Sequence record: OR896822.1
Source of the DNA: Salmonella phage vB_SenS-3
Reading direction: 5' to 3' (one strand)
DNA length: 64,000 bases
Shown here: positions 31,404 to 45,607 of the stretch, piece by piece
Layout: every line of letters starts with the position of its first letter
Numbering within the stretch: the first letter of the stretch is position 1
Translations under genes and position numbers: made by a program
The notes under the pieces: model-generated
Seen by the model: the letters and a program-made list of their open reading frames with translations, nothing else
The model's database searches: none
Told to the model about the DNA's origin: nothing

Positions 31404-31432
31404 TTGCTAATTAGTTTAGTTTTCTGTATAAT
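31404..31432 (+). promoter_or_regulatory. sigma70-type early promoter
   Basis: -35 TTGCTA, 17 bp, -10 TATAAT. Confidence 0.6.
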
Positions 31433-31462
31433 ATATTTTTAAATTGATGAGACGAGGCTATT

Positions 31463-31780
31463 ATGATTTTTCATATTCTTATTGATGATGTGCGTAACCT
31501 TCATGGAATGGACATTATAATTCGAACCCCCGAAGCCGCTGTTGAGTTTCTGAATAAAACCGATACCACAGGTCATTTCGTTTATATGGATAACGATCTG
31601 GCTGTAGATGATATGGAAGGTTATCAAATTCTTCGTTTACTCCTAGAATTTGGTCAGAGACCCAAGAAAGTGGTACTAGTAACCTCGAACCCAGTAGCTA
31701 AAGAGACCATGCGTAATGATCTCTTAGACGAAGGGTATCAAGAAAGCCCTAATCGTATTGAGTACGATTGGCCGGAGTAA
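31463..31780 (+). CDS. CheY-like receiver (REC) domain protein
   Basis: 105 aa; ILIDD acidic pair, YMDNDL putative phosphoacceptor region, VVLVTSNP and downstream Lys follow CheY spacing. Confidence 0.5.
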   Translation: MIFHILIDDVRNLHGMDIIIRTPEAAVEFLNKTDTTGHFVYMDNDLAVDDMEGYQILRLLLEFGQRPKKVVLVTSNPVAKETMRNDLLDEGYQESPNRIEYDWPE

Positions 31781-31785
31781 ATAAA

Positions 31786-32235
31786 ATGAAGGCAGCTTTG
31801 CTTTTAATAGCTGCCCTAACCTATAGCTTCAATAGTCATGCTACCTACGACGCTAAACAGATTGATTGCATTGCAAAAAATGTCTATTTTGAGAGCCGAG
31901 GTGAGGGCACGAAGGGAATGGTTGCAGTTGCACAGGTCACCAAAAACCGTGTTAACTCTGGTACATTCCCGGATTCTTACTGTAAAGTAGTATATCAGTC
32001 TAACCAGTTCTCTTGGGTATCTAAGAGACCAAAAGTTGATAAAACCGATGCGGCTTGGCAAACTGCTAAGAATGTAGCTAGAGTGATATACTACGTTGAT
32101 TTACCCCATGATCCAACATATGGAGCGTTATACTTCCATAGTGGTAAAGAAAAGCCGTACTGGACGAAAACGTTCAAGAAAACAACTAAAATTCAAGGCC
32201 ACACGTTCTATAAGCCTGTGACTAAGAAAATTTAA
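31786..32235 (+). CDS. secreted SleB-like cell wall hydrolase domain protein
   Basis: signal peptide MKAALLLIAALTYSFNSHA; Hydrolase_2-like NVYFESRGEG...VAQVTKNR; ATG 31786 with RBS GGAG. Confidence 0.65.
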   Translation: MKAALLLIAALTYSFNSHATYDAKQIDCIAKNVYFESRGEGTKGMVAVAQVTKNRVNSGTFPDSYCKVVYQSNQFSWVSKRPKVDKTDAAWQTAKNVARVIYYVDLPHDPTYGALYFHSGKEKPYWTKTFKKTTKIQGHTFYKPVTKKI

Positions 32236-32243: not shown

Positions 32244-32272
32244 TTGCTTTAAGCCTTAAAATTCTGTATAAT
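32244..32272 (+). promoter_or_regulatory. sigma70-type early promoter
   Basis: -35 TTGCTT, 17 bp, -10 TATAAT. Confidence 0.6.
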
Positions 32273-32304
32273 AACTGTATAAATTGATGAGAGGAAAGCG
32301 AACA

Positions 32305-33444: not shown

Positions 33445-34074
33445 TAATAGTGGGGTGCCGAAACCACTTATGTAACAACACTGCCGTCCTAGTATAATAG
33501 GTATTATTAGGGCTTCACCGCCTGAAGATGTGGGTTCGAGTCCCACGGTCGGAAAGAGTTGGATAACTGGTGCTTCTAATGGCGAAGCAATCGCAGGCAG
33601 TTGCGCACTGCCAAAACCACGCGGTAGTTGGTTCCAGGCTAACCAACCACTCTTGAAAAGTATATACTACGGTTTTGCTTGTTCAGGAAGCTTCGCATCG
33701 AAAATCGGAGGTGCGATTTTATCAGACCGCGTGGAGGACGTCTCTCCGTTAAGTGACGAAAAGTGGGACGATTCAGGTAGAGCTGGATATGGAACACCTA
33801 TACATATGCGGAGTGCGCACAAAGCATATTGCGGTGGTACTAAACGAAATTAGGAGTCATGACCTGCACAAGTTTAGTATGTCATAACCGATGTACATTC
33901 AGTACAAAAACCACTGAAGCTAAGATAGATAGTCACCTTGACTTAAACTGGAAGATATTGTCTGACGGAAGGGCTGCAGAGCTTAATCTGAGGGGGCTGA
34001 CCCTACCTACCGTCGGGTATCTTTAAGAGTTCTTACGAGAACTCTTAAAGATACCTAAACATTAAGGAATACTG

Positions 34075-34584
34075 ATGAATCTAGGAACTACTTGTATATT
34101 TGATCACAGAGAAATGTGTTGCCCACATATTCTGTATGTAGTTCACTTTGCAGAACGTCTTACTCTGGATGAAGCTCGTGAGAAAATGGGTGGAATTACT
34201 GGATATGATTTCCGTGAAGGTGAATACTTTAGCATTGCTCTTGATTACATTGACAATACCCGTCTCTATCATCTAGTGCAGCTAGGGGAAGAAACTGATG
34301 AAGTGAAAATGGCGAAAGATACTCTACGTCGTTATCGTCCTCAGATTCTAGAACGTACACTTCGTGGAGAACGTAGTGACCCATTGTTCTTGAAGTGCTA
34401 TGACGCAGATGTTAATGAGTATCTAGGACAGCAACGGTTTTACACTGAAATCAAAGAGTTTGTTCGTGAAAAATACGACGCTCTACTAATTGATTCCAGA
34501 GCACGACGTGCAGCTAAAAATGCTGAGAAATCTGCTAAAGCAGCACTAGAAAGCCAAACCAAACTGAACGAAATCGTTAAGTGA
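34075..34584 (+). CDS. hypothetical protein
   Basis: 169 aa ORF ending 8 nt before tRNA-Arg. Confidence 0.55.
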   Translation: MNLGTTCIFDHREMCCPHILYVVHFAERLTLDEAREKMGGITGYDFREGEYFSIALDYIDNTRLYHLVQLGEETDEVKMAKDTLRRYRPQILERTLRGERSDPLFLKCYDADVNEYLGQQRFYTEIKEFVREKYDALLIDSRARRAAKNAEKSAKAALESQTKLNEIVK

Positions 34585-34592
34585 TCTAATTT

Positions 34593-34667
34593 CGGGGTGT
34601 AGTCTAAGGGATAGGCAGGAGTCTTCTAAATTCCTTTATGCAGGTTCGAATCCTGTCACCTCGGCCA
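34593..34667 (+). tRNA. tRNA-Arg (anticodon TCT)
   Basis: hand-folded cloverleaf: acceptor CGGGGTG/CACCTCG, anticodon loop CTTCTAA, T-loop TTCGAAT, CCA encoded. Confidence 0.75.
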
Positions 34668-34693
34668 ATCTTATTACCTGTTAGGAAAATAAA

Positions 34694-34894
34694 ATGAAAA
34701 CACGATATATAGTAAAAGTAGTAGGTGAACATTCGCAAGTAAATACCACGGATGTTACAGCACTAGCATTTGAGGTAGTCTCCGGTATAGTCATATTTCA
34801 TAATGGGGATATCAAAGCTCCTGAATTTGCTGTGGATGCTGGCCTGTTTATTTCTGCAACTAAAGTAACTGTAGTAGCTAACTCTTCTAAATAA
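34694..34894 (+). CDS. hypothetical protein
   Basis: 66 aa ORF with RBS AGGAAA. Confidence 0.45.
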   Translation: MKTRYIVKVVGEHSQVNTTDVTALAFEVVSGIVIFHNGDIKAPEFAVDAGLFISATKVTVVANSSK

Positions 34895-34905
34895 TAAGGA
34901 AATAT

Positions 34906-35850
34906 ATGTTTACTAAAAACACTAAAGAACTGACTTCTGAGCAAAAAGTAATTCGTACTATTAAACGTTGGGGTGTTGGTGCTGCTATTAGTCTTGGTGC
35001 TCTTATTCTGGCTCTCAATTCCTATACAGTTGTTCAGGATGGTACTGTTAAGACCCAAACCTTCCTGGGTAAAGTTAGCCCTAATCCTGTATTGCCAGGC
35101 TTCCATATTGTTAACCCATTTGCTTCTTTTGATACTTTTAGTACGAAAGATATTTCCATGAAACTGGATAAACTTCAGGTTCCTAGCCAGGATAAGTTTA
35201 AGTCCACTGTTGACATTACCGTTATGTTGCAGTTTGATGGTGCTAAAGCTCCTATGAACCGTGTTAACGCAGGTACTCAGGATCAAGCTCTGAACAAGTA
35301 CGTTGAAGAGAAGATGCTGTCTACGATTCGTGAGTTTGGTAAGTCTGTACCAAAAGCACAAGATCTGTTCGACGCTAAGATTCAGGCTCAACTGCAAACC
35401 GCTATTCAGCAAGAAGTAGAAGAGTATGCGCGTCCTTATGGTTACACCGTTAAGCAAGTATTCCTTCAGGATATTACTCTGCCACCGGTAATCATGGAAC
35501 AGGTACAGAACACCAAAGTTCGTGAAGAACAAGTTAACGCTGCAAAAGCTGAACTGGCTCGTGTTGAACAAGAAGCACAGCAGAAAGTTAAGCAAGCTGA
35601 GGCGGATCGTTCCGCTCGTGAAAACATGGCAGTAGCTAACGAACGTGACGCAGATGCTAAACTGTACGCAGCTAAGAAAGAAGCTGAAGCTAACGCCGCT
35701 CTGCAACGTACCATTACTCCTGAAATGATTCGTTGGAAGCAGCTGGAAGTTGAAATGCTTCGTGCTGAAAAATACCAAGGTGGTGTACCACAGACTGTTG
35801 TCGGTACTGGCTACGATGGTCAAATGATCATGGATATGCGTAACAAGTAA
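34906..35850 (+). CDS. SPFH/band-7 (prohibitin/HflC-like) membrane protein
   Basis: 314 aa; N-terminal TM helix, SPFH-like core, C-terminal Ala/Glu-rich coiled coil. Confidence 0.7.
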   Translation: MFTKNTKELTSEQKVIRTIKRWGVGAAISLGALILALNSYTVVQDGTVKTQTFLGKVSPNPVLPGFHIVNPFASFDTFSTKDISMKLDKLQVPSQDKFKSTVDITVMLQFDGAKAPMNRVNAGTQDQALNKYVEEKMLSTIREFGKSVPKAQDLFDAKIQAQLQTAIQQEVEEYARPYGYTVKQVFLQDITLPPVIMEQVQNTKVREEQVNAAKAELARVEQEAQQKVKQAEADRSARENMAVANERDADAKLYAAKKEAEANAALQRTITPEMIRWKQLEVEMLRAEKYQGGVPQTVVGTGYDGQMIMDMRNK

Positions 35851-35873
35851 TAGTTACACGTAATCTTCGAACC

Positions 35874-35908
35874 AAGCCCGCGTTTCCTTCGAGAGCGCGG
35901 GCTTTTCT
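35874..35908 (+). terminator. rho-independent terminator after SPFH gene
   Basis: AAGCCCGCG...CGCGGGCTT hairpin followed by TTCTGT. Confidence 0.55.
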
Positions 35909-36054
35909 GTATTTAAGGCAAAAGAAAAAGCCCATAAGTTATTCAACTAAGGTCTTTAGTATTTAATTCTTTAGAATCATATACTATTATTGCAGCAACA
36001 ACGTGCTAACCTTAAGTGCCCTGCGATTTTCCTCTAAAAAGTTAAAAAATTCGA

Positions 36055-36083
36055 TTGCTTGAATGCTAAATTCTCTGTATAAT
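36055..36083 (+). promoter_or_regulatory. sigma70-type early promoter
   Basis: -35 TTGCTT, 17 bp, -10 TATAAT, conserved leader TATAAATTTGAGAGAGGAATCAAAT. Confidence 0.6.
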
Positions 36084-36113
36084 ATATTTATAAATTTGAG
36101 AGAGGAATCAAAT

Positions 36114-37169
36114 ATGATTAAGACTGGTCTAGTAATTGGTAAGTTCGCACCATTAACGCGTGGTCATATTAACCTAATAAACACAGCAGCAACTATGTGT
36201 GAACGAGTTATTGTTGTAGTTAGTCATGATAATCGTTGGCTGGATAAGCAGAACACACGTGATAAGGAAGTATTACAGTTAAAGAATCGACTTCGTTGGT
36301 TAGAACAAACTTACGCGGATATTGAGCACATTTCGGTAGAGTACATTATTGAAGATGATATTCCTGAATATCCGAATGGTTGGCCGGAATATGCTAGAAT
36401 CCTTAATGAAAATTACGGACATTTGCCTGAGATCACCGTTTTCTCTAGCGAACTAGACTATGATGCAGAATATAAGAAATATCTGCCGAAGTTTGGTCAT
36501 TATATTGTAGATTCTGATCGGACTCGTGTTCCAATCTCAGCTACAATGATTCGTAATGATCTTATGAAGTATTGGGAGTTTCTTCCTAGCGTAGTTCGTA
36601 AAGATTACGTGCGTAAGGTTGTAATCATTGGGACTGAAAGCTCGGGAAAGACTACTTTAACAAAATACCTTGCGAAGCTATACAACACTTCGTGGGTAGA
36701 AGAATATGGTCGAACGTATTGTGAAGTTGATCTAGTTGGTAACGAAAATCTGCTTACCAGCGAAGATTATAGTAAAATTGCGTTCAGACACAAAGAGCTA
36801 GAGTTTGAAGCAGAACGTACTGCAAATAAGATCATGTTTGTGGATACAAATGCTTTTATTACTGAGTTCTACCACAGACTTTATGAACATAGTAAGAATC
36901 CTGTGGTTACAGCAATTGCAAAAGAAGAACATTATGATTTAGTAATTGTTCTAGCGCCTACTGTCAAGTGGGTAGATGATGGTTTACGTATTAACTCCGA
37001 TCGTTCAATTACTTCTGAACTATTCGAGCAGATGAAGAAAGAATTTCCAAATCAGTTCCCTGAAGGGCGTACTGTTTACATCGACTCTCCGGACTACAAA
37101 GTTCGTATGGACGAAGCAGTAAACGCAGTAGACTGGCTGATTCATCACTTTAACGTTGGAGAGTTTTAA
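36114..37169 (+). CDS. nadR: NadR-like bifunctional NMN adenylyltransferase / ribosylnicotinamide kinase
   Basis: N-terminal GKFAPLTRGHINLI (nucleotidyltransferase HxGH-type); C-terminal Walker A GTESSGKTT; ATG 36114 after conserved leader RBS. Confidence 0.8.
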   Translation: MIKTGLVIGKFAPLTRGHINLINTAATMCERVIVVVSHDNRWLDKQNTRDKEVLQLKNRLRWLEQTYADIEHISVEYIIEDDIPEYPNGWPEYARILNENYGHLPEITVFSSELDYDAEYKKYLPKFGHYIVDSDRTRVPISATMIRNDLMKYWEFLPSVVRKDYVRKVVIIGTESSGKTTLTKYLAKLYNTSWVEEYGRTYCEVDLVGNENLLTSEDYSKIAFRHKELEFEAERTANKIMFVDTNAFITEFYHRLYEHSKNPVVTAIAKEEHYDLVIVLAPTVKWVDDGLRINSDRSITSELFEQMKKEFPNQFPEGRTVYIDSPDYKVRMDEAVNAVDWLIHHFNVGEF

Positions 37170-37170
37170 T

Positions 37171-37827
37171 ATGACTAACTATCTCGTAAATGACTTTAAA
37201 AACTGGAAACCTCTGGAATATCTGTGGCTGTTCATAGCGGTTGTCTTCATTAGTTTAGCAAACTATAATGGTACAGCTCTAGATTGGGCTACTGCAATAA
37301 CCAATGTGGTTTGTGTTATTCTGGTTGCAAAAGGACGTATTTCCAACTATATTTGGGGCTTAGTGGGTGTTCTTACATATGGTATTACAGCTTTAAACGC
37401 AGATCTTTATGGTAACGCTGCACTAAACCTGCTATACTACGTTCCTATGCAGTTTTATGGAATGTACTTATGGCATAAAAATAAGCCAAGTAATCTGCCA
37501 GATGTTCCAACTAAGGTTCTGACTAAAGCCCAAGCTCTGCTGACTCTAGGGATTCTAGCAGTAGCCACGTTAGGGTATGGTAGTTTCTTAGCTACTACGG
37601 CTGATCCATTTCCAATGTTGGATGCATTTACTGCTGTAGGTAGTGTGATCGCTATGTGGCTTATGGTTAAGCAATATGCCGAGCAGTGGCTGATCTGGAT
37701 TGCTATTAACATTGGTACTGTGTACATTTGGCTTGTAACTGCTCAATCTACAGGTGCATCTTATGCAATCCTAGCAATGTGGCTAGTATTCTTAGGTAAC
37801 TCTATTATAGGAGCCTATAAAGGATAA
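37171..37827 (+). CDS. pnuC: PnuC-like nicotinamide riboside transporter
   Basis: polytopic membrane protein with W/G-rich helices; adjacent and co-oriented with nadR; ATG 37171 after RBS GGAGAG. Confidence 0.7.
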   Translation: MTNYLVNDFKNWKPLEYLWLFIAVVFISLANYNGTALDWATAITNVVCVILVAKGRISNYIWGLVGVLTYGITALNADLYGNAALNLLYYVPMQFYGMYLWHKNKPSNLPDVPTKVLTKAQALLTLGILAVATLGYGSFLATTADPFPMLDAFTAVGSVIAMWLMVKQYAEQWLIWIAINIGTVYIWLVTAQSTGASYAILAMWLVFLGNSIIGAYKG

Positions 37828-37854
37828 TTTGTACGCGTTAACAAATAAAGTAGT

Positions 37855-37878
37855 TATAGCCCTCGCTTAGAGGGCTAT
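37855..37878 (+). terminator. putative terminator hairpin after pnuC
   Basis: ATAGCCCTC-GCTTA-GAGGGCTAT perfect 9-bp hairpin; weak T-run. Confidence 0.45.
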
Positions 37879-37895
37879 TATACAGAAATTTTCAC

Positions 37896-37924
37896 TTGCT
37901 TAATATAGAAAATTTCTGTATAAT
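37896..37924 (+). promoter_or_regulatory. sigma70-type early promoter
   Basis: -35 TTGCTT, 17 bp, -10 TATAAT; leader identical to the nadR promoter leader. Confidence 0.6.
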
Positions 37925-37954
37925 ATATTTATAAATTTGAGAGAGGAATCAAAT

Positions 37955-38251
37955 ATGAAACGCATTGTACTTGCATTGACTCTAGTATCTACTTCTGTAT
38001 TTGCTGCTCCACAACAGGAACTTTGTCAAGTTCAAGTTTGTAATAAGCTAGAACGATTTACTCTAGACATTTGGTCCCACATTAAAGATAATATGGGTGA
38101 ACAGTGTTTTGATATTGTTCTGCCAAAAGAACAAGCTGTTCCTGGGGCTGTTCTCAGCTCAGAATCACGTTGGTGGCAAGGTTCTTCTATCAACCCAACT
38201 AAGAAGTCAGTGACACGTATCAAACAAGTATATCAGTGCAACGTTCAGTAA
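37955..38251 (+). CDS. secreted hypothetical protein
   Basis: signal peptide MKRIVLALTLVSTSVFAAP; paired cysteines. Confidence 0.5.
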   Translation: MKRIVLALTLVSTSVFAAPQQELCQVQVCNKLERFTLDIWSHIKDNMGEQCFDIVLPKEQAVPGAVLSSESRWWQGSSINPTKKSVTRIKQVYQCNVQ

Positions 38252-38259
38252 AATTTCAC

Positions 38260-38288
38260 TTGCTTAATGCCTAAATTTTCTGTATAAT
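38260..38288 (+). promoter_or_regulatory. sigma70-type early promoter
   Basis: -35 TTGCTT, 17 bp, -10 TATAAT. Confidence 0.6.
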
Positions 38289-38321
38289 ATATTCATAAAT
38301 TTGGAAGATTAGGAACTATTT

Positions 38322-38831
38322 ATGTTAGACTATGAGTCTATACTTTATAGATTCCGTTTAGAAGATGGTGTACTGGTGTGGAATCCGCTCTCCGGAAACT
38401 CCAGAGAGGAGAAGATATTTAATACTAAGTTTGCCAATAAACCTGCGGGATCTTTGCACAAAAGCTCTGGGTATATCAGAGTTAACGTTGATCACCAAGA
38501 TTACTTAGCTCATATCATAGTATTTATACTATATTATGGGTATAGGCCGGAAATGGTTGATCATAAAGACTGCAATAAGTTAAATATACATCCTTTAAAT
38601 TTAAGAGCAGCGGATAGTACCACTAATACTCATAATGCTAGTAAATCTTCTAGGAATACTAGCGGATTTAAGGGAGTATCCTACCACAAAGCATCTGGTC
38701 AGTGGCAGGGTAGAATAATGTTTAAAGGTAAGTCATACTCCGCAGGGCTGCACAGTACTCCTGAAGCAGCAAATGAAGCTCTAATTCAACTGAGAGAGAA
38801 ACTTCATGGGGAATATGCCCGAAATAATTAA
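38322..38831 (+). CDS. HNH homing endonuclease with AP2 domain
   Basis: 169 aa; HNH core PEMVDHKDCNKLNIHPLNL; AP2-like GFKGVSYHKASGQWQGRIMFKGKSY; stop abuts tRNA-Ser. Confidence 0.75.
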   Translation: MLDYESILYRFRLEDGVLVWNPLSGNSREEKIFNTKFANKPAGSLHKSSGYIRVNVDHQDYLAHIIVFILYYGYRPEMVDHKDCNKLNIHPLNLRAADSTTNTHNASKSSRNTSGFKGVSYHKASGQWQGRIMFKGKSYSAGLHSTPEAANEALIQLREKLHGEYARNN

Positions 38832-38920
38832 GGAAGAATAGCATAACGGTATTGCAGCAGATTGCTAATCTGTCGGTTTGAAACATAGCCTTGTGGGTTC
38901 GATTCCCACTTCTTCCGCCA
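38832..38920 (+). tRNA. tRNA-Ser (anticodon GCT), long variable arm
   Basis: acceptor GGAAGAA/TTCTTCC perfect; anticodon loop TTGCTAA; T-arm GTGGG-TTCGATT-CCCAC; CCA encoded. Confidence 0.8.
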
Positions 38921-38925
38921 AATTT

Positions 38926-39003
38926 GGTTCTCAAGCTCATTTGGTATGAGCCGTCGCCTCATAAGCGAAAGGTAGGTAGGTTCGAATCCTCCGGGAGCCA
39001 CCA
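38926..39003 (+). tRNA. tRNA with CAT anticodon (Met or Ile2)
   Basis: acceptor GGTTCTC/GGGAGCC with G-U pairs; D-stem GCTC/GAGC; anticodon loop CTCATAA; CCA encoded. Confidence 0.7.
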
Positions 39004-39152
39004 GATAACTAGGAGACTTTATGTCACGCTTTCACGAAATTAAGCAAGAACTAGAAGAATGTATGTGTACTGAATGTTGGGGTTCTGGCACTTAATGTTC
39101 CAGTGACTGGATTCCCTGATTGGCTGCAAGGTTACGAACTCTAACAAAATTT

Positions 39153-39238
39153 GGATCTGTGGTGGAATTGGCAATACACACCATGCTTAAAACGTGGCGC
39201 TTAAATGATTGAGGGTTCGAGCCCCTCCAGATCCACCA
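39153..39238 (+). tRNA. tRNA-Leu (anticodon TAA), long variable arm
   Basis: acceptor GGATCTG/CAGATCC perfect; anticodon stem CCATG/CGTGG, loop CTTAAAA; T-arm GAGGG-TTCGAGC-CCCTC; CCA encoded. Confidence 0.8.
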
Positions 39239-39399
39239 AATTAAGGAAGTAAAAATGAAATCTATTAAGAAAGCTATTCGTGAACTTATCCGTTGTCGCT
39301 TCCATAGCATCAAGGCTTCAACTAATGGTACTACTTACGATCGCTACGATCGCTATGATCCTAAGTTTGGCTTACATTCTAAATAACTGGAGAAAACAA

Positions 39400-39606
39400 A
39401 TGGCTAATCCTGAAATTACGGCACAACGTTTTATGCTGAAAGGAATTATTGCTGAAGCAGGCGTGACACAAGAAGTGGAAGATTTCCATAAGCAGTTCCT
39501 AAATATTCTCACTCAAGCCAAAGAGCTAGGAGAGAAAGAACATGGCGCGGCTATTATGGCAATCACATTGGTTGGGCTTGATCTGGCAGAAGAATCAGGA
39601 GTTTAA
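39400..39606 (+). CDS. hypothetical protein
   Basis: start set at internal ATG (MANPEITAQ...) with RBS; upstream part of the listed ORF overlaps tRNA-Leu. Confidence 0.4.
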   Translation: MANPEITAQRFMLKGIIAEAGVTQEVEDFHKQFLNILTQAKELGEKEHGAAIMAITLVGLDLAEESGV

Positions 39607-39636
39607 CTTCTCCAAGCAGAAATTTTAAAAATGTAC

Positions 39637-39666
39637 TTGCTTTTTACTTAAGATTTCTGCTATAAT
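39637..39666 (+). promoter_or_regulatory. sigma70-type early promoter
   Basis: -35 TTGCTT, 18 bp, -10 TATAAT. Confidence 0.55.
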
Positions 39667-39695
39667 AGTTATATAAGTTGATGAGAGGAATCAGA

Positions 39696-39971
39696 ATGTT
39701 AAAACGTTTTGCAGCAACTGGTATTGAAAGCTCAGTATGTAAATCCTGGGGTGGTTGGGAAGGTGAGATCGAGTGGCTTTATTTCTACAATGTAGAACTT
39801 CTTCCAGAGATCAAAGCTCAATGTATTAAGGCTGGTATGGCTCCTGATGCTACGGCTGATGTTGAAATCAGCATGAATAAGCTAGAGGGTCGAGTAGTCA
39901 CTGTTACTGATGAAGGTGAAGAGGTATTCGAACTTCCATTCACTTTGAAAGTCACTCCTTCATTTGATTAA
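39696..39971 (+). CDS. hypothetical protein
   Basis: start at ATG after conserved leader RBS GAGAGGAATCAGA. Confidence 0.5.
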   Translation: MLKRFAATGIESSVCKSWGGWEGEIEWLYFYNVELLPEIKAQCIKAGMAPDATADVEISMNKLEGRVVTVTDEGEEVFELPFTLKVTPSFD

Positions 39972-40008
39972 CTGATACAGCACTTGAGCAAGTTCTTTAA
40001 AATTTGAC

Positions 40009-40038
40009 TTGCTCAAGTGCCTTAAAACTTGATATAAT
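40009..40038 (+). promoter_or_regulatory. sigma70-type promoter heading a tRNA transcription unit
   Basis: -35 TTGCTC, 18 bp, -10 TATAAT; about 120 nt leader then tRNA-Tyr. Confidence 0.55.
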
Positions 40039-40162
40039 AGTTACCTAATTTGGAAACATATCTGAATGAGAAGTAATTAAGCGAGTTGCTTTGAGGGATA
40101 AAGTCAGGATAGCCGGAAATATTCCACCTTGAGTTTAACCGACTTACTTTTCATTCAAATAT

Positions 40163-40243
40163 GGGGGATTGGCTCAGTGGCGACGGCGCCTGGCTGTAGA
40201 CCGGGTATATCACGCGGAGGTTCGAGTCCTCCATCCCCCACCA
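40163..40243 (+). tRNA. tRNA-Tyr (anticodon GTA), long variable arm
   Basis: acceptor GGGGGAT/ATCCCCC perfect; anticodon stem CCTGG/CCGGG, loop CTGTAGA; T-arm GGAGG-TTCGAGT-CCTCC; CCA encoded. Confidence 0.75.
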
Positions 40244-40251
40244 AAATTAAT

Positions 40252-40326
40252 GCACCTATCGTCTAATGGTTAGGACATCAGGATTTCAATCTGAGAATTG
40301 AACTCCGATTCTCCGTGGGTGTGCCA
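40252..40326 (+). tRNA. tRNA-Glu (anticodon TTC)
   Basis: acceptor GCACCTA/TGGGTGT; D-stem GTCT/GGAC; anticodon stem TCAGG/TCTGA, loop ATTTCAA; atypical T-arm; CCA encoded. Confidence 0.6.
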
Positions 40327-40335
40327 ATTAATAAT

Positions 40336-40406
40336 TGGGGTACGCATAGGTTGCTAGTGGGCCTCCAAAACCCATGAAAAGGTTTCGAATACCTTTACCC
40401 CTGCCA
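40336..40406 (+). tRNA. tRNA-Trp (anticodon CCA), atypical
   Basis: T-arm AAGGT-TTCGAAT-ACCTT perfect; acceptor 6 bp with U1/U72 mismatch; anticodon loop CTCCAAA; CCA encoded. Confidence 0.55.
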
Positions 40407-40412
40407 ATATTT

Positions 40413-40487
40413 GCACCTTTAGCTGAGATGGATTAGCGCTTGCCTGAAGAGCTTGAGAGGTTCGTTCAATTCGAACAGGGTGCACCA
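40413..40487 (+). tRNA. tRNA, probable Phe (anticodon GAA); anticodon stem imperfect
   Basis: acceptor GCACCTT/AGGGTGC; T-arm GTTCG-TTCAATT-CGAAC perfect; loop CTGAAGA fits Phe but stem has two U-U mismatches; CCA encoded. Confidence 0.55.
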
Positions 40488-40504
40488 ATTTGAAGGAGAT
40501 GCTG

Positions 40505-40777
40505 ATGCATCCTGAAAACTTCTTTATATACTGTACTAGTCCTTTGCTTAAACGCCGGATTAATAAAGTATATCACTACAGAGCTAGTCAACAGCCTTAT
40601 GTTTATGATTCTAGTGGAGATCATATTCCACTTGAGCAACTAGGGACTGATTATATGGTTTTGAAGCACTTTAATGAGGCGAAGATCTCTAGCGTTCATA
40701 ACCGACAAAACTCTAAAACGTGGTGGCATAAGAAGCGTAAGAAAGGCATCAAATTTCTTAAAAATGTAGTTGCTTAA
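40505..40777 (+). CDS. hypothetical basic protein
   Basis: ATG 40505 six nt after RBS AAGGAG, immediately downstream of the tRNA cluster. Confidence 0.45.
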   Translation: MHPENFFIYCTSPLLKRRINKVYHYRASQQPYVYDSSGDHIPLEQLGTDYMVLKHFNEAKISSVHNRQNSKTWWHKKRKKGIKFLKNVVA

Positions 40778-40798
40778 ATCCTTAAAGTTCTGTATAAT
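40770..40798 (+). promoter_or_regulatory. sigma70-type early promoter
   Basis: -35 TTGCTT, 17 bp, -10 TATAAT; -35 overlaps stop region of 40505..40777. Confidence 0.6.
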
Positions 40799-40826
40799 TA
40801 TTACATAAATTGAACTGGAGAACTAG

Positions 40827-41015
40827 ATGAAAGCACCTAAACCGAAATTAGTTAAGTTCGACTGCTGTGATACTGAAATCTTATTTACTAAGTTTGGTGA
40901 ATTTAAGATGTGTGAATGTGGAACATGTGGTTACGATCATGGTGATGGATATTATTGCAGAACCCTAGGGCCTTCTGAACTAATCCACTTCTCATGGCCG
41001 GAAAGTAAAGAATAA
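40827..41015 (+). CDS. small Cys-rich (zinc-ribbon-like) protein
   Basis: 62 aa; CC...CEC..CGYDH..YC cysteine pattern. Confidence 0.45.
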   Translation: MKAPKPKLVKFDCCDTEILFTKFGEFKMCECGTCGYDHGDGYYCRTLGPSELIHFSWPESKE

Positions 41016-41083
41016 TACGACCGTTGGCTGAATGGCTTAGGCGGAGGCCTGCAAAACCTCCTTATGTGAGTTCGAATCTCATG
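41008..41083 (+). tRNA. tRNA-Cys (anticodon GCA)
   Basis: acceptor CGACCGT/GCGGTCG; anticodon loop CTGCAAA; T-arm GTGAG-TTCGAAT-CTCAT; CCA encoded; 5' end overlaps stop of 40827..41015. Confidence 0.7.
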
Positions 41084-41235
41084 CGGTCGTCCAATTTGCT
41101 GAAAGAATTGTTAAATCAATTCAGGCACGCGTAGGAACACTGCCTCAGTAATTGAAAGATGAGGCACGGTTTGGAGAGGTATGCCGCTACACGCTACGGT
41201 GCTAACTCCGTCTAGGTGAAAATCCTAGTCAGCAA

Positions 41236-41318
41236 TATAAATTTAGGGTCGTTAGCCAAGCGGTTTGGCGGTGGACTGTTAATCCATGTCGAAAGACAAC
41301 GTAGGTTCGAATCCTACA
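41236..41318 (+). tRNA. tRNA with GTT anticodon (Asn-like) and 13-nt variable arm
   Basis: acceptor GGGTCGT/ACGGCCC; anticodon stem GTGGA/TCCAT, loop CTGTTAA; T-arm GTAGG-TTCGAAT-CCTAC perfect; CCA encoded. Confidence 0.6.
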
Positions 41319-41431
41319 CGGCCCGCCATATTCTATGTAGGATTAAGTAAACCGGTAGCCAACCAGCTATCATTACTGATATCGAATTCAGTCACAGATA
41401 CCATTTTTCACTAACAACTGAGGAAATAGAT

Positions 41432-41617
41432 ATGACAACTCGTGCAATTGCTCGACTAGAAGCTGATCGTGATAATCTGATTAATAATATTAAGGTTCGT
41501 GGTAATATTATTAAGGCTCTGAAAGCTGAACTTCTTGAAGAACTTCAAGGTCAAGTAGAGCGTCGTGAAGCTCTAAAAGAGGTTGAGGAAGCTATCGAAA
41601 AACTCAAGGCTGAATAA
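41432..41617 (+). CDS. hypothetical coiled-coil protein
   Basis: 61 aa ORF with RBS GAGGAAA. Confidence 0.45.
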   Translation: MTTRAIARLEADRDNLINNIKVRGNIIKALKAELLEELQGQVERREALKEVEEAIEKLKAE

Positions 41618-41620
41618 ATT

Positions 41621-42202
41621 ATGCACGGAATATCCTTACCCATTCCAGGGTTTGAGGAGTACTTAGTAAGTTTGGATGGGTTAGTATTTAGTATCAAATC
41701 AAACAAAATACTAACCCCAATAACCAGTAATTACGGATACTTATCTATACGTCTCCATAAAAATGGTCAACAGAGAAATACCGGTGTACATAGGATTTTA
41801 GCATGTGCATTTAAGAAATTACCAAGTCTAGACTCTGAACTAGAAGTTGACCATATTAACACAGACATTACTTATTGGGGTCTTAATAACTTACAAGTGC
41901 TCACAAAAGAGCAGCATCTAGAAAAGACTTTAAAAGATAAAGGATTTAGTAAACTAAACCATGATAATTGTTGTAAGGATTGTGGTAAAGCTATTTCTTT
42001 AAAAGCTGAAAAATGTCAGGAGTGCTCTTCACATAAACCAAAAGATATCTCTATAACTAAAGAAATAATCGAGGTTACAGTAAGAGAGCTAGGCTGGTCA
42101 GGTGCAGGGAGAAAGTTAAATTATTCAGATAATGGGTTGCGTAAAAGATACACTTCTTTAGGAGGCAATCCTAAAGAACTTAAAAAGTTAAAGGTACTAT
42201 AG
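41621..42202 (+). CDS. HNH homing endonuclease (NUMOD-like N-terminus)
   Basis: 193 aa; motifs HRILACAF...VDHINTD...NNLQ; Cys-rich C-terminal region; stop codon overlaps 5' end of tRNA-Asp. Confidence 0.7.
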   Translation: MHGISLPIPGFEEYLVSLDGLVFSIKSNKILTPITSNYGYLSIRLHKNGQQRNTGVHRILACAFKKLPSLDSELEVDHINTDITYWGLNNLQVLTKEQHLEKTLKDKGFSKLNHDNCCKDCGKAISLKAEKCQECSSHKPKDISITKEIIEVTVRELGWSGAGRKLNYSDNGLRKRYTSLGGNPKELKKLKVL

Positions 42203-42267
42203 TCTAACGGTTAGGATACTCCCCTGTCACGGGAGAGGTAGGGTTTCGATTACCCTTAGTACCGCCA
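42193..42267 (+). tRNA. tRNA-Asp (anticodon GTC)
   Basis: acceptor GGTACTA/TAGTACC perfect; anticodon stem CTCCC/GGGAG, loop CTGTCAC; T-arm AGGGT-TTCGATT-ACCCT; CCA encoded. Confidence 0.85.
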
Positions 42268-42273
42268 AATTAT

Positions 42274-42350
42274 ACATCCATAGCTCAACTGGTCAGAGCT
42301 ACCGCCTCTTAAGCGGAGGGTTGAAGGTTCAAGTCCTTCTGGGAGTACCA
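42274..42350 (+). tRNA. tRNA-Lys (anticodon CTT)
   Basis: D-stem GCTC/GAGC; anticodon loop CTCTTAA; T-arm GAAGG-TTCAAGT-CCTTC; acceptor with one A-A mismatch; CCA encoded. Confidence 0.65.
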
Positions 42351-42553
42351 AACAAATAGAGTAAAGGCTACAGTAGGTGCACCCTTACGGACTGCTACAC
42401 CGGACTCTATTCATTAACAAACATTCTAGCGTGGTGGAGAGGGGACACCAGCTGTGCGAGGGTAGAAGCTTGTTCGATTCAAGTGAAAGAATGGTTCTCG
42501 TAAATCCGCAGCAGTGATAGTAGGTTCAAGTCCTACCTAGATTGACTTATTAT

Positions 42554-42627
42554 GCGTTCGTAGTTAAAAGGTATAATTTTTGGTTGCCAACCAGAAGTTG
42601 AGGGTTCGATTCCCTCCGACCGCACCA
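42554..42627 (+). tRNA. tRNA-Gly (anticodon GCC)
   Basis: T-arm GAGGG-TTCGATT-CCCTC; acceptor GCGTTCG/CGACCGC (one mismatch); anticodon stem TTTGG/CCAGA, loop TTGCCAA; CCA encoded. Confidence 0.65.
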
Positions 42628-42878
42628 AATTTAGGTTTCTGCTTCCTAGAGAACGGACTCCTAGATAAACAAGGCGATGAGTTTCCGGCCGGTTCTAGTC
42701 GCTGAAAATCCTCCCGACCAGGTAGGTGTAGGTAAACGAAAGTTTACTTATTGAGTAGGTTCCGATAGATCGGCGGATCTATTCTGGCATTTAAGAGAAG
42801 TCTCGCAAACTTCTTTGTCAGCAGAGCGTTTGAAGCGTGAGGTGGCCTACACAATAAGTAAATTTATTAAAAACTCAT

Positions 42879-42907
42879 TTGCTATTTCACTTAATTCTCT
42901 TTATAAT
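42879..42907 (+). promoter_or_regulatory. sigma70-type promoter heading a tRNA transcription unit
   Basis: -35 TTGCTA, 17 bp, -10 TATAAT; tRNA-Pro begins about 33 nt downstream. Confidence 0.6.
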
Positions 42908-42939
42908 ATATCTTATAAAGTGAGTTAACAAAGAATATT

Positions 42940-43017
42940 CTCCGTGTAGCTCAGTTTGGCCAGAGCGTTCCGTTTGGGGCGGTAGGGTCGGGGGTTCAAA
43001 TCCTCCCACGGAGACCA
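42940..43017 (+). tRNA. tRNA-Pro (anticodon TGG)
   Basis: acceptor CTCCGTG/CACGGAG perfect; D-stem GCTC/GAGC; anticodon loop TTTGGGG; T-arm GGGGG-TTCAAAT-CCTCC; CCA encoded. Confidence 0.8.
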
Positions 43018-43023
43018 AACAAT

Positions 43024-43101
43024 TGCGGGTTAGATCTCTGGTAGAGATCGCTAGTCTCATAAGCTAGAAAGAGGTAGGTTAGATTCCTACACCCGCTTCC
43101 A
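43024..43101 (+). tRNA. tRNA with CAT anticodon (Met or Ile2), U1/U72 mismatch
   Basis: D-stem GATC/GATC; anticodon stem CTAGT/GCTAG, loop CTCATAA; T-arm GTAGG-TTAGATT-CCTAC; CCA encoded. Confidence 0.7.
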
Positions 43102-43120
43102 ATTTAATAGAGGATACGAA

Positions 43121-43285
43121 ATGAAATTATTTCGATTGGTAGTAAGTGATAGACGGTCTAGCAAAGATCGTTCGAAGTATACCTTAGCCCATTATGGGAA
43201 AGATGAAAATGAAGTAATGGCTGAATTTGGTATTAATCATCGCTACTTAGAAGTTTACTCTATTAAGGAAGTTTATCCGTATTAA
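43121..43285 (+). CDS. small hypothetical protein (54 aa) between tRNAs
   Basis: ATG-initiated ORF found by eye (not in the six-frame list, under 60 aa); ends at the nucleotide before tRNA-Lys. Confidence 0.3.
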   Translation: MKLFRLVVSDRRSSKDRSKYTLAHYGKDENEVMAEFGINHRYLEVYSIKEVYPY

Positions 43286-43363
43286 GGGTCGTTAGCTCAA
43301 TTGGTTAGTAGCACTTGCCTTTTAAGCAATAGGTTGAAGGTTCGAGTCCTTCACGACCCACCA
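43286..43363 (+). tRNA. tRNA-Lys (anticodon TTT)
   Basis: acceptor GGGTCGT/ACGACCC perfect; anticodon loop CTTTTAA; T-arm GAAGG-TTCGAGT-CCTTC; CCA encoded. Confidence 0.8.
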
Positions 43364-43372
43364 AATTACTTT

Positions 43373-43446
43373 GCTCGGTTAGTTTAATGGGAGAACCCCG
43401 TCTTTACACGGCGGTTGCGATAGTTCGATTCTATCACCGAGTACCA
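43373..43446 (+). tRNA. tRNA-Val (anticodon TAC)
   Basis: acceptor GCTCGGT/ACCGAGT; anticodon stem CCGTC/GGCGG, loop TTTACAC; T-arm GATAG-TTCGATT-CTATC; CCA encoded. Confidence 0.75.
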
Positions 43447-43471
43447 ATTAACTCAAAATAAGGAATTGCAA

Positions 43472-43825: not shown

Positions 43826-43846
43826 TGCTTAATTTCTTGTTATAAT
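43818..43846 (+). promoter_or_regulatory. sigma70-type promoter overlapping the 3' end of CDS 43472..43825
   Basis: -35 TTGCTT, 17 bp, -10 TATAAT; leader then forms an 8-bp hairpin GATGAGGA/TCCTCATC. Confidence 0.55.
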
Positions 43847-44187: not shown

Positions 44188-44192
44188 AATTC

Positions 44193-45601: not shown

Positions 45602-45607
45602 AATATT

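What the first reader, a model, noticed from the sequence alone, without database searches (positions are those of the whole stretch)
31463..32235. Stand-alone CheY-like receiver domain protein next to a secreted SleB-like cell-wall hydrolase
The 105 aa ORF shows the acidic pair (ILIDD), a candidate phosphoacceptor Asp region (YMDNDL) and the conserved Thr/Ser and Lys spacing of receiver domains, but no output domain. A phage single-domain response regulator could titrate phosphoryl groups or partner proteins of host two-component systems. It overlaps a signal-peptide-bearing hydrolase-domain protein.
Basis: inference. Interest (0 to 1): 0.6.

Follow-up and report, generated by a model that had tools for sequence, protein, structure and literature searches.

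The report
Phage T5-type cREC receiver-like enzyme gene
The 105-residue gene is real and does have a receiver-like fold, but it belongs to the already catalogued phage "cREC" family, which is a predicted cyclic-phosphate esterase with no experimental test yet, and it is not a CheY-type signalling protein; its position next to the secreted cell-wall hydrolase appears to be incidental.

Summary
The window is a T5-like Salmonella phage (Epseptimavirus). ORF 31463-31780 (+) is the orthologue of T5 gene T5.084.

**Identity**
- It matches Pfam PF20274 (cREC_REC, "cyclic-phosphate processing receiver domain") at 55.6 bits against a cutoff of 27.
- It does not match Response_reg.
- Public databases already give its orthologues the cREC name.

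**Structure**
- Helices alpha1 and alpha5 are missing.
- The acidic pair (D8, D9), the acceptor-equivalent D43 and T74 are kept.
- The conserved receiver Lys is absent.
- The family adds invariant D45 (a HAD-like DxD motif) and invariant R21, plus the nearly invariant R11 and N76.

**Context**
- No histidine kinase appeared in any context examined.
- The gene has its own T5 early promoter. It lies 1.7 kb upstream of a 28-tRNA array.
- The window also encodes a sirtuin, a "Swiss-army-knife" HAD RNA-repair phosphatase, and NadR/PnuC NAD salvage.
- Distant homologues sit near RtcB, RNA ligases or tRNAs in only a minority of loci.
- The hydrolase does not overlap the ORF (its ATG is at 31786). It occurs without cREC in other phages.

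**Verdict**
This is a known but biochemically untested family, so the finding is ordinary. The host two-component "phosphate sink" idea is not supported.

The parts
31404..31452 (+). T5-type early promoter: -35 TTGCTA, 17 nt spacer, -10 TATAAT at 31427-31432, then the conserved downstream box TAAATTGATGAGA
   Evidence: Promoter scan gives 10 of 12 consensus matches. The motif TGTATAATn7TAAATTGATGAGA occurs 13 times in the window against 0.01 expected. The T5 record annotates a promoter at the same place upstream of T5.084.
31463..31780 (+). cREC gene, the orthologue of T5.084: a 105-aa stand-alone cyclic-phosphate-processing receiver-like domain
   Evidence: PF20274 at 8.5e-15 and 55.6 bits, cutoff 27. 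phrog_1479. 91% identical to proteins named cREC by UniRef and NCBI. AlphaFold pLDDT 96.5. dN/dS 0.10.
31484..31495 (+). Codons for D8, D9, V10 and R11: the acidic pair after beta1 (equivalent to CheY D12/D13) plus the family-specific Arg
   Evidence: D8 and D9 are invariant in 94 of 94 members; position 11 is R in 90 and K in 4. Alignment to receivers.
31589..31597 (+). Codons for D43, N44 and D45: the acceptor-equivalent Asp after beta3 and an invariant Asp at +2, a HAD-like DxD motif
   Evidence: D43 and D45 are invariant in 94 of 94; position 44 is H or N in 89 of 94. D43 aligns to CheY D57.
31682..31690 (+). Codons for T74, S75 and N76 after beta4: T74 is equivalent to CheY T87, and N76 is family-specific
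   Evidence: Position 74 is T in 70 and S in 24 of 94; N76 is present in 93 of 94. Alignment.
31786..32235 (+). Co-transcribed neighbour: a secreted SleB-like cell-wall hydrolase (Hydrolase_2), the T5.083 orthologue. Residues 1-19 (31786-31842) look like a signal peptide. It appears functionally independent of cREC.
   Evidence: PF07486 at 3.7e-26. Hydrophobic N-terminus. Annotated start is ATG 31786. The hydrolase is found in 1175 phage records against 493 for cREC. Sugarlandvirus has it without cREC; in phage My1 the two genes are 2.8 kb apart.
32265..32292 (+). Next T5-type early promoter motif, which closes the two-gene unit
   Evidence: Exact motif match. The T5 record annotates promoter P-D/E 33 at this position.
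33482..47455 (+). Array of 28 tRNA genes starting 1.7 kb downstream; a possible substrate pool (inferred)
   Evidence: ARAGORN.
15329..15868 (-). HAD_SAK_2 "Swiss-army-knife" RNA-repair phosphatase; a possible pathway partner (inferred, 15.6 kb away)
   Evidence: PF18143 at 4.1e-17. The SP15-type sirtuin plus HAD pairing is described in PMC9503650.
16148..16999 (-). SIR2-family protein; a possible pathway partner (inferred)
   Evidence: PF02146 at 2e-21. Homologues occur in 978 phage records.
36063..37827 (+). NadR-like NMN adenylyltransferase/kinase and the PnuC transporter (NAD+ salvage), 4.3 kb downstream
   Evidence: CTP_transf_like plus AAA_28, and NMN_transporter at 3.3e-43. Annotation in phage rokbiter.
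29367..30068 (+). Rv2179c-like 3'-5' exoribonuclease-family protein, the T5.087 orthologue, 1.4 kb upstream
   Evidence: PF16473 at 1.3e-07. The same family occurs once among the neighbours of distant cREC genes.

Best explanation
**Identity (near certain).** The ORF is the T5.084-type member of the cREC family (Pfam PF20274). It is a roughly 100-residue stand-alone domain derived from the receiver fold, and it is widespread in phages.

**Mechanism (inferred, moderate confidence).** It is an enzyme, not a signalling switch.
- The receiver active-site face is kept: D8/D9 probably hold a divalent cation, D43 is the probable nucleophile, and T74 is the probable phosphate ligand.
- The face is rebuilt with an invariant Asp at +2 (D45). 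In HAD phosphatases the Asp at this position is the general acid/base that protonates an alcohol leaving group.
- A His or Asn sits between the two Asp residues. Conserved R11, R21 and N76 are also present.
- The partner-docking helices alpha1 and alpha5 have been deleted.
- This residue set fits hydrolysis of a phosphoester through an aspartyl-phosphate intermediate.

**Substrate (following the published prediction, inferred).** The most likely substrate is a cyclic phosphate: either the 2',3'-cyclic ends left on tRNA/RNA by host metal-independent nucleases, or the ADP-ribose 1'',2''-cyclic phosphate made when an NAD-dependent transferase removes a 2'-phosphate.

**Role in this phage (inferred).** The gene is expressed early from its own promoter. 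It would act with genes dispersed across the genome: the 28 tRNA genes, the sirtuin plus HAD_SAK phosphatase pair, and NadR/PnuC NAD+ salvage. Together these would keep the tRNA pool usable or clear NAD-derived by-products during infection.

**The hydrolase.** The adjacent periplasmic hydrolase merely shares the transcript.
For: **Family membership**
- PF20274 at 55.6 bits against cutoff 27. All 94 of 94 diverse relatives match it.
- The best viral structural matches are cREC proteins, TM 0.70-0.93.
- Orthologues are already named cREC.

**Fold**
- pLDDT 89.9 and 96.5, both with the same topology lacking alpha1 and alpha5.
- hhalign against receivers gives 87% probability, with an 8-residue gap where alpha1 would be.

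**Catalytic-type conservation**
- D8, D9, R21, D43, D45 and G53 are invariant. R11, D17, N76 and T/S74 are nearly invariant across about 30-45% identical sequences.

**Context in this phage**
- Own early promoter.
- tRNA array; SIR2 plus HAD_SAK_2; NadR/PnuC.

**Context of distant homologues**
- RtcB two genes downstream, with tRNAs nearby (L027).
- Rnl1-like ligase two genes downstream (L019).
- RlaP four genes upstream (L009).
- An RNA_ligase 2.3 kb upstream (L003).
- Metallophos phosphoesterases in four loci (two among the IMG/VR neighbours, plus L039 and a weak match in L040).
- tRNAs within 6 kb in 4 of 19 distinct IMG/VR loci and in Vibrio phage D481.

**Literature**
- Published prediction of cyclic-phosphate processing and absence from histidine-kinase contexts: PMC7824862 and PMC9503650.
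Against: - No biochemical data exist for any family member. Only two computational papers mention the family, and no solved structure exists.
- In my own sample most cREC neighbourhoods (about 75-80%) contain only small unknown ORFs, so the RNA-repair link is a minority signal with no background control.
- No RNA ligase or polynucleotide kinase is annotated in the related T5-like genomes.
- The sirtuin/HAD pair is 15 kb away on the other strand. Klebsiella T5-like phages keep the sirtuin but lack cREC.
- The protein is very acidic: pI 4.6, net charge about -10, family median pI 5.2. That is not what one expects of a protein that grips RNA.
- The T5 clade lacks the K/R at position 103 that most members have.
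- I could not read model coordinates, so the clustering of the conserved residues into one pocket is inferred from topology and was not measured.
Confidence: 0.5

Rival explanations
1. Counter-defence enzyme or sponge for small-molecule immune signals. In this reading cREC cleaves or sequesters cyclic nucleotides or ADP-ribose-derived messengers (Thoeris gcADPR, CBASS or Pycsar cyclic nucleotides, type III CRISPR cyclic oligoadenylates), not RNA ends. It would be functionally analogous to the 2H-fold Acb1.
For: - It is a small, acidic, stand-alone early protein with its own early promoter.
- It is an accessory gene, present or absent among related phages.
- One of 146 neighbours of distant homologues matches the anti-Thoeris protein Tad3. 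One neighbour is a YAcAr (SLOG) domain protein.
- The literature also proposes cADPr processing.
- The phage invests in NAD+ salvage.
Against: - No structural match to any characterised anti-defence protein in the viral structure library.
- The Tad3 and YAcAr neighbours are single occurrences.
- No experiment exists.
Confidence: 0.2
2. An ordinary nucleotide phosphomonoesterase of phage nucleotide metabolism, such as a nucleotidase, using HAD-like chemistry.
For: - The gene lies just downstream of the nrdA/nrdB/frd/thy/RNase H block.
- Neighbours of distant homologues include thymidylate synthase, DHFR, dCMP deaminase, ribonucleotide reductase, adenylosuccinate synthetase and Thy1.
- The DxD plus T/S plus DD constellation is that of HAD phosphatases (established knowledge of HAD motifs).
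Against: - Such neighbours are generic to early and middle regions of large phages.
- T5-like phages already encode a dedicated dNMP phosphatase.
- Nothing specific ties cREC to these genes.
Confidence: 0.1
3. A non-catalytic receiver-like module that binds a host or phage protein, with the conserved acidic face serving binding and not catalysis.
For: - Pseudo-receivers that act by binding exist (established knowledge).
- The protein is small and acidic.
- In one phage lineage the next gene encodes a ribosomal L7/L12 C-terminal-like domain protein.
Against: An invariant set of charged residues in active-site-type positions (DD, DxD, R, T/S, N), held across about 30% identical sequences, is more typical of catalysis.
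Confidence: 0.1
4. One reading: a CheY-like single-domain response regulator that accepts phosphoryl groups from host histidine kinases (a phosphate sink) or titrates their partners, possibly linked to envelope stress through the neighbouring hydrolase.
For: - Receiver-like fold.
- The acidic pair, the acceptor-position Asp and the Thr are retained.
- 7 of 94 family members weakly match Response_reg.
Against: - No Response_reg match for this protein.
- Alpha1 (the kinase-docking helix) and alpha5 are deleted.
- The conserved Lys is absent.
- No histidine kinase or Hpt protein in any context examined, and none reported in the literature.
- The family spans phages of Enterobacteria, Vibrio and many uncultured hosts, which argues against matching to particular host kinases.
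- The hydrolase adjacency is not conserved.
Confidence: 0.04

Closest known systems
cREC, cyclic-phosphate processing receiver domain (Pfam PF20274; Iyer, Aravind and co-workers 2021 and 2022: PMC7824862, PMC9503650)
   Same: A member by sequence (55.6 bits), by predicted structure (TM 0.70-0.93 to viral cREC proteins) and by the conserved DD and DxD aspartates. It is phage-encoded, stand-alone, and has no histidine kinase nearby.
   Different: - In T5-like phages the gene is not in a compact RNA-repair or NAD operon. The candidate partners (sirtuin, HAD_SAK, NadR/PnuC, tRNAs) are dispersed over 1.7-16 kb.
- The T5 clade has N, not H, between the two Asp residues.
- The T5 clade lacks the C-terminal K/R found in most members.
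Canonical response-regulator receiver domains (CheY, Spo0F; Pfam PF00072)
   Same: - Equivalent acidic pair, acceptor-position Asp and Thr/Ser.
   Different: - No PF00072 match.
- Alpha1 and alpha5 are absent.
- No conserved Lys.
- Invariant Asp at acceptor+2, plus conserved Arg and Asn residues.
- No kinase partner. It is therefore not a member.
HAD-superfamily phosphatases (DxD nucleophile and acid/base motif)
   Same: Analogous constellation of catalytic-type residues: nucleophile Asp with an Asp at +2, a Thr/Ser, an acidic pair for Mg2+ and a basic residue. On this basis cREC may work like a HAD enzyme (inference).
   Different: - The motif follows beta3 of a receiver topology, not beta1 of the HAD fold.
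- No HAD Pfam match.
- No cap, squiggle or flap elements. It is not a member.
2H phosphoesterases (LigT, CPDase; viral Acb1-like enzymes)
   Same: The function proposed in the literature is the same: opening 2',3'- or 1'',2''-cyclic phosphates, or cleaving cyclic nucleotides.
   Different: - Unrelated fold.
- No pair of H-x-T/S motifs; the three His residues here (H4, H14, H38) are not followed by x-T/S. This is a functional analogy only.
SleB / Hydrolase_2 cell-wall hydrolases (PF07486), for the neighbouring gene
   Same: The neighbour matches the whole domain (92 bits) and has an N-terminal signal-like segment.
   Different: It is an early-region gene separate from the phage's holin and lysozyme lysis cassette, and it is distributed independently of cREC.

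Membership tests
cREC (PF20274) | Match to the family profile above Pfam's gathering score | tested here: met
   55.6 bits against cutoff 27, E 8.5e-15, covering profile positions 2-86 of 88.
cREC (PF20274) | Receiver-related Rossmann-like fold | tested here: met
   [not shown]
cREC (PF20274) | Conserved catalytic-type aspartates shared with receivers | tested here: met
   D8, D9, D43 and D45 are invariant in 94 of 94 relatives.
cREC (PF20274) | Never associated with histidine kinases | tested here: met
   No kinase or Hpt protein is annotated in related T5-like genomes. None appears in the gene tables of 8 metagenomic loci, nor among the 25 most frequent Pfam families of 146 neighbours. Caveat: 30 rarer families in that search were not listed.
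cREC (PF20274) | Genomic association with RNA-repair or NAD/ADP-ribose genes | tested here: inconclusive
   The window encodes SIR2 plus HAD_SAK_2, NadR/PnuC and 28 tRNAs, but 1.7-16 kb away. Among distant loci, RtcB, RNA ligases or RlaP occur in about 4 of 27, and tRNAs occur in 4 of the 19 IMG/VR loci. No background control was run.
cREC (PF20274) | Cyclic-phosphate phosphoesterase activity | not testable with these tools
   This is a prediction only. No experimental paper was found.
Response-regulator receiver (PF00072, CheY-like) | Match to the Response_reg profile | tested here: not met
   No hit at E up to 1 or 0.1. Only 7 of 94 relatives match weakly.
Response-regulator receiver (PF00072, CheY-like) | Complete (beta-alpha)5 fold with alpha1 and alpha5 | tested here: not met
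   Both models have strands at 4-7, 18-20, 39-42, 69-72 and 100-102, and only three helices. hhalign places an 8-residue gap where alpha1 would be.
Response-regulator receiver (PF00072, CheY-like) | Conserved quintet: acidic pair, acceptor Asp, Thr/Ser, Lys | tested here: not met
   The acidic pair, D43 and T74 are present. The Lys is absent: the C-terminus reads YDWPE, and no K or R follows the last strand.
Response-regulator receiver (PF00072, CheY-like) | Cognate histidine kinase or phosphotransfer partner; phosphorylation on Asp | not testable with these tools
   No kinase is encoded nearby. Phosphotransfer from host kinases needs an assay.
HAD superfamily | DxD motif at the end of the first strand of the HAD fold, with squiggle and flap; HAD profile match | tested here: not met
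   No HAD family hit. The DxD follows beta3 of a receiver topology.
2H phosphoesterase | Two H-x-T/S motifs | tested here: not met
   The sequence has His only at positions 4, 14 and 38, and none is followed by x-T/S.
Hydrolase_2 (SleB-like), neighbouring gene | Match to PF07486 above the gathering score | tested here: met
   92.1 bits against cutoff 27, covering profile positions 1-100 of 100.

The most novel reading that the evidence does not exclude
cREC is a real enzyme class that grafts HAD-type chemistry onto a stripped-down receiver scaffold: an Asp nucleophile with an Asp at +2 acting as general acid. In T5-like phages it would be the missing cyclic-phosphate-opening step of a dispersed, NAD-dependent RNA end-healing route. 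That route would comprise cREC, the sirtuin, the HAD_SAK phosphatase and NadR/PnuC, and it would protect the phage's 28 tRNAs from host anticodon nucleases. Because T5 is a tractable model phage, this would make the so far purely computational sirtuin/cREC RNA-repair hypothesis directly testable.
Probability: 0.3. Interest if true: 0.6.

Novelty: already known. Interest (0 to 1): 0.3.

Why it matters
As it stands, this is a correct re-annotation. A gene that looks like a viral CheY is in fact a member of a catalogued phage family predicted to process cyclic phosphates, so there is no evidence that the phage tampers with host two-component signalling.

The residual interest is that the family is large: at least 3,500 sequence clusters, and 493 phage genome records for this clade alone. 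It has never been tested biochemically, and it is present in phage T5. There it coexists with a sirtuin, an RNA-repair-type phosphatase, NAD salvage genes and a large tRNA set, which makes T5 a convenient system for finding out what cREC does.

Tried and rejected
- **Sequence search of PDB** with the orthologue profile gave only chance-level resolvase hits at E of about 0.5 or higher. Foldseek against PDB found nothing at E up to 0.001. No family member has a solved structure.
- **The word-indexed protein search** with the single sequence reached only T5-like orthologues. The exhaustive profile search was needed to see the family.
The afdb50 structure library was unavailable.
- **Functional coupling to the hydrolase** is rejected. 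In Pectobacterium phage My1 the two genes are 2.8 kb apart. Sugarlandvirus has the hydrolase directly after the exonuclease gene with no cREC. None of the 146 neighbours of distant cREC genes resembles the hydrolase, YqeY, NadR or PnuC.
- **Strict co-occurrence with the sirtuin** is rejected. 978 phage records carry the sirtuin against 493 for cREC, and Klebsiella T5-likes have the sirtuin only. In Vibrio phage R10Z the two genes are about 97 kb apart. No sirtuin lies within 35 kb of cREC in Vibrio phage PVA8.
- **Single-sequence hhalign to CheY** placed D45 on D57. The deeper profile comparison and the secondary structure place D43 there, and I use the latter.
- **The antisense 62-aa ORF** (31439-31627) has no support and was ignored.
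Full report
**Where we are.** A 2-kb stretch around the finding is 100% identical to Salmonella phages vB_SenS-3, vaffelhjerte and gmork, and it matches 449 phage records in all. These are T5-like siphoviruses: Demerecviridae, Markadamsvirinae, Epseptimavirus.

**The observation.**
- ORF 31463-31780 (+) encodes 105 residues. A GAGG ribosome-binding site lies 5 nt upstream of its ATG.
- It is annotated as a CDS in phage rokbiter and as T5.084 in phage T5 ("hypothetical protein, similar to KVP40.0304").
- Against the T5 orthologue, dN is 0.059 and dS is 0.585, a ratio of 0.10. It is therefore a real gene under purifying selection.
- The downstream gene matches Pfam Hydrolase_2 (SleB-like) at 92 bits. 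It begins MKAALLLIAALTYSFNSHA, a hydrophobic signal-like segment.
- The stated overlap depends on an upstream TTG at 31768. Every annotated record instead uses ATG 31786, which has a GGAG 9 nt upstream and lies 5 nt after the first gene's stop. The two genes abut and do not overlap.

**What the ORF is.**
- Pfam gives one significant hit: PF20274 cREC_REC, "cyclic-phosphate processing receiver domain", at E 8.5e-15 and 55.6 bits against a cutoff of 27. There is no Response_reg hit at E up to 1.
- PHROGs places it in phrog_1479, function unknown.
- Orthologues at 87-91% identity are already called [quoted passage not shown] by UniRef and NCBI. At least one GenBank phage record also uses that name.
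- An exhaustive profile search found 400 representative clusters (50% identity level) at E up to 0.001. A second search found at least 3,514 clusters at the 90% level. Nearly all are stand-alone proteins of about 100 residues. The few longer ones show no recurrent second domain; one carries an HNH domain.
- All 94 diverse members I aligned match PF20274. Only 7 weakly match Response_reg.

**Structure.**
- Two AlphaFold runs, with 16 and 94 sequences, gave pLDDT 89.9 and 96.5 and identical secondary structure. Strands are at 4-7, 18-20, 39-42, 69-72 and 100-102. Helices are at 23-32, 53-62 and 77-89.
- Foldseek against PDB finds nothing at E up to 0.001. The best hits are again receivers, at TM 0.55-0.61.
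- In the viral structure library the best matches are proteins named cREC, at TM 0.70-0.93.
- The fold is therefore receiver-derived but clearly divergent, and no member has been solved.
- Compared with the canonical (beta-alpha)5 receiver, helix alpha1 and helix alpha5 are missing.
- A profile-profile alignment of the family against five canonical receivers gave 87% probability and E 3.8e-6. The alignment independently places an 8-residue gap where alpha1 would be.
- That alignment maps D8/D9 to CheY D12/D13, D43 to D57, G53 to G65 and T74 to T87.

**Conserved residues.**
- Across the 94 sequences (about 30-45% identity to the query), D8, D9, R21, D43, D45 and G53 are invariant.
- R11, D17, G47, P67, N76 and Y92 are at least 90% conserved.
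- Position 74 is always T or S. Position 44 is H or N.
- No Lys corresponds to the receiver Lys. Most members have K or R at position 103, after the last strand, but the T5-like clade has W, L or F there.
- The invariant Asp two residues after the acceptor-position Asp is not a receiver feature. In HAD phosphatases that residue is the general acid/base needed when the leaving group is an alcohol (established knowledge of HAD motif I).
- Together with T/S74, the acidic pair and conserved arginines, this reproduces a HAD-like catalytic set on a receiver scaffold.
- These positions all lie at or just after strand C-termini, or in the loop following beta1, on the active-site face of the receiver topology. 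That is an inference; I could not read coordinates.

**Why it is not a two-component protein.**
- Beyond the failed profile match and the missing Lys, alpha1 is the principal histidine-kinase docking surface of response regulators (established knowledge), and it is deleted here.
- No histidine kinase or Hpt protein is annotated in the related T5-like genomes.
- None occurs in the gene tables of eight metagenomic loci.
- None is among the most frequent families of 146 neighbours in 19 distinct viral contigs.
- The two papers that describe the family state that it is never found with histidine kinases. They predict a phosphoesterase acting on 2',3'-cyclic RNA ends or cyclic ADP-ribose derivatives, and they note that it is experimentally uncharacterised (PMC7824862, PMC9503650).
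- A full-text search found no other paper on the family and none on T5.084.

**Genomic setting in this phage.**
- A sigma-70-type promoter lies at 31404-31432: TTGCTA, 17 nt, TATAAT.
- It carries the conserved T5 early-promoter downstream box. The motif TGTATAATn7TAAATTGATGAGA occurs 13 times in the window against 0.01 expected, and exact copies at 31425 and 32265 bracket the cREC and hydrolase genes.
- The T5 record annotates promoters at both corresponding places. The two genes therefore form a small early transcription unit.
- Upstream are the nucleotide-metabolism block, RNase H and an Rv2179c-like 3'-5' exoribonuclease-family protein.
- Downstream are a DUF7616 protein, a YqeY-like protein and an HNH endonuclease. 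From 33482 onward there are 28 tRNA genes.
- A NadR-like NMN adenylyltransferase/kinase and a PnuC transporter lie at 36063-37827.
- On the other strand, at 15329-16999, are a HAD_SAK_2 "Swiss-army-knife RNA repair" phosphatase and a SIR2-family protein.
- That pair is exactly the "SP15-type" pairing that PMC9503650 proposes as a sirtuin-based RNA end-healing system.
- No RNA ligase or polynucleotide kinase is annotated in the related T5-like genomes.

**Is the hydrolase a partner?** No.
- In Pectobacterium phage My1 the cREC gene sits upstream of the DUF7022 and exonuclease genes, 2.8 kb from the Hydrolase_2 gene.
- Klebsiella Sugarlandvirus phages keep the hydrolase at 65% identity, directly after the exonuclease gene. 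They have no cREC, either by tblastn or by a family HMM on six-frame translations.
- The hydrolase occurs in 1,175 phage records, including Pseudomonas and rV5-like phages. This cREC clade occurs in 493.
- None of the neighbours of distant cREC genes resembles it.

**Independent look at the family's contexts.** I examined 19 distinct IMG/VR loci, taking four genes on each side (146 ORFs from a simple longest-ORF call). I also examined eight loci with precomputed Pfam hits.
- RtcB lies two genes downstream in L027, with two tRNAs upstream.
- An Rnl1-like RNA ligase lies two genes downstream in L019.
- RlaP lies four genes upstream in L009.
- An RNA_ligase lies 2.3 kb upstream in L003.
- Metallophos phosphoesterases occur in four loci (two among the IMG/VR neighbours, plus L039 and a weak match in L040).
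- There is one match each to an Rv2179c-like exonuclease, the anti-Thoeris protein Tad3, a YAcAr domain and a queuosine-salvage protein.
- Several nucleotide-metabolism enzymes are also present.
- tRNA genes lie within 6 kb in 4 of the 19 distinct viral loci, and once cREC is inside a 10-tRNA array. This is also true in Vibrio phage D481 and in the T5-like phages.
- Most loci, however, show only small unknown ORFs, and I had no background control.
- My sample is therefore compatible with the published RNA-repair and NAD association but does not prove it.
- The sirtuin link is not strict. The sirtuin is in 978 records, including Klebsiella T5-likes that lack cREC. In Vibrio phage R10Z the two genes are about 97 kb apart.

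**Most likely mechanism.**
- Shown: family membership, the receiver-derived fold lacking alpha1 and alpha5, the conserved residue set, early expression signals, and the absence of kinases.
- Inferred: the protein is a phosphoesterase that uses D43 as nucleophile and D45 as general acid/base, with D8/D9 holding a metal and T74 and the arginines holding the phosphate.
- Inferred: it opens cyclic phosphates on cleaved tRNA/RNA, or on ADP-ribose 1'',2''-cyclic phosphate.
- Inferred: it serves tRNA maintenance or NAD-linked counter-defence together with genes dispersed across the genome.
- Points against: the protein is very acidic (pI 4.6, family median 5.2), the related genomes annotate no RNA ligase, and nothing has been tested experimentally.
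- I put about 0.5 on this reading. The rest is spread over an anti-defence small-molecule hydrolase or sponge (0.2), a plain nucleotidase (0.1), a non-catalytic binder (0.1) and the original phosphate-sink idea (0.04).

**Verdict.** The feature is real. The host two-component reading is not supported, and the hydrolase adjacency is incidental. Novelty: already known. Interest is low to moderate, resting only on the fact that this large phage family is still biochemically untested and is present in the model phage T5.

Noticed in passing
window 15329-15868 (-) and 16148-16999 (-): A HAD_SAK_2 "Swiss-army-knife RNA repair" phosphatase and a SIR2-family protein lie close together. This matches the SP15-type sirtuin-centred predicted RNA-repair pairing of PMC9503650. 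The same genome also carries cREC, NadR, PnuC and 28 tRNAs, so all the parts of that hypothetical pathway except a ligase are present but dispersed.
   Followed up: partly
window 8119, 10359, 30091, 31425, 32265, 36076, 37917, 39659, 43839, 46670, 49317, 59155, 59660: The motif TGTATAATn7TAAATTGATGAGA (up to 3 mismatches) occurs 13 times against 0.01 expected. It is a T5-type early promoter with a conserved downstream box, and it marks the early transcription units.
   Followed up: partly
window 33482-33555 (+): A 74-nt tRNA with anticodon UCA. ARAGORN calls it tRNA-SeC, and the rokbiter record calls it tRNA-OTHER. At normal tRNA length it looks more like an opal-suppressor-type tRNA than a selenocysteine tRNA.
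   Followed up: no
window 30375-31013 (+) and 29367-30068 (+): These look like inherited mis-annotations. The early 212-aa ORF is labelled "tail fiber protein" (phrog_1491) although it sits in the early region and has no structural-protein domain. The Rv2179c-like 3'-5' exoribonuclease-family protein is labelled "metallopeptidase" in several records.
   Followed up: no
L008:6320-6874, L011:6306-6665, L018:774-1331, L020:2182-2736: In one lineage of uncultured phages, the gene immediately downstream of cREC encodes a protein with a ribosomal L7/L12 C-terminal-like domain (Pfam Ribosomal_L12; phmmer against E. coli L7/L12, E 5e-9 to 3e-7). This is a possible translation-related link.
   Followed up: partly
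L037 (Klebsiella phage Spivey, MK630230.3 41099-46533): Sugarlandvirus T5-like phages keep the Hydrolase_2 gene and the sirtuin but have no cREC gene. cREC is therefore an accessory gene within Demerecviridae, not a core one.
   Followed up: yes
protein P0030 (273 aa): An HNH_3 homing-endonuclease domain is fused in frame to a cREC domain that is 51% identical to the query. This is probably a homing-endonuclease insertion merged with the gene, or a gene-calling fusion.
   Followed up: no
window 32962-33444 (+) and 38322-38831 (+): Two HNH_3 homing-endonuclease genes are interspersed in the tRNA region; the second also has an AP2 domain. Such insertions vary between otherwise near-identical phages.
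   Followed up: no
window 14493-15326 (-): Two tandem paralogous DUF7415 genes lie next to the HAD_SAK gene.
   Followed up: no
L007 (Vibrio phage D481) 351-2803 and 4992-5348: In a schizoT4-type Vibrio jumbo phage, the cREC homologue lies about 2.2 kb downstream of an 11-tRNA array. About 1.9 kb further downstream is a 477-aa DUF2828/DUF7788 protein annotated as "RNA-binding protein".
   Followed up: partly
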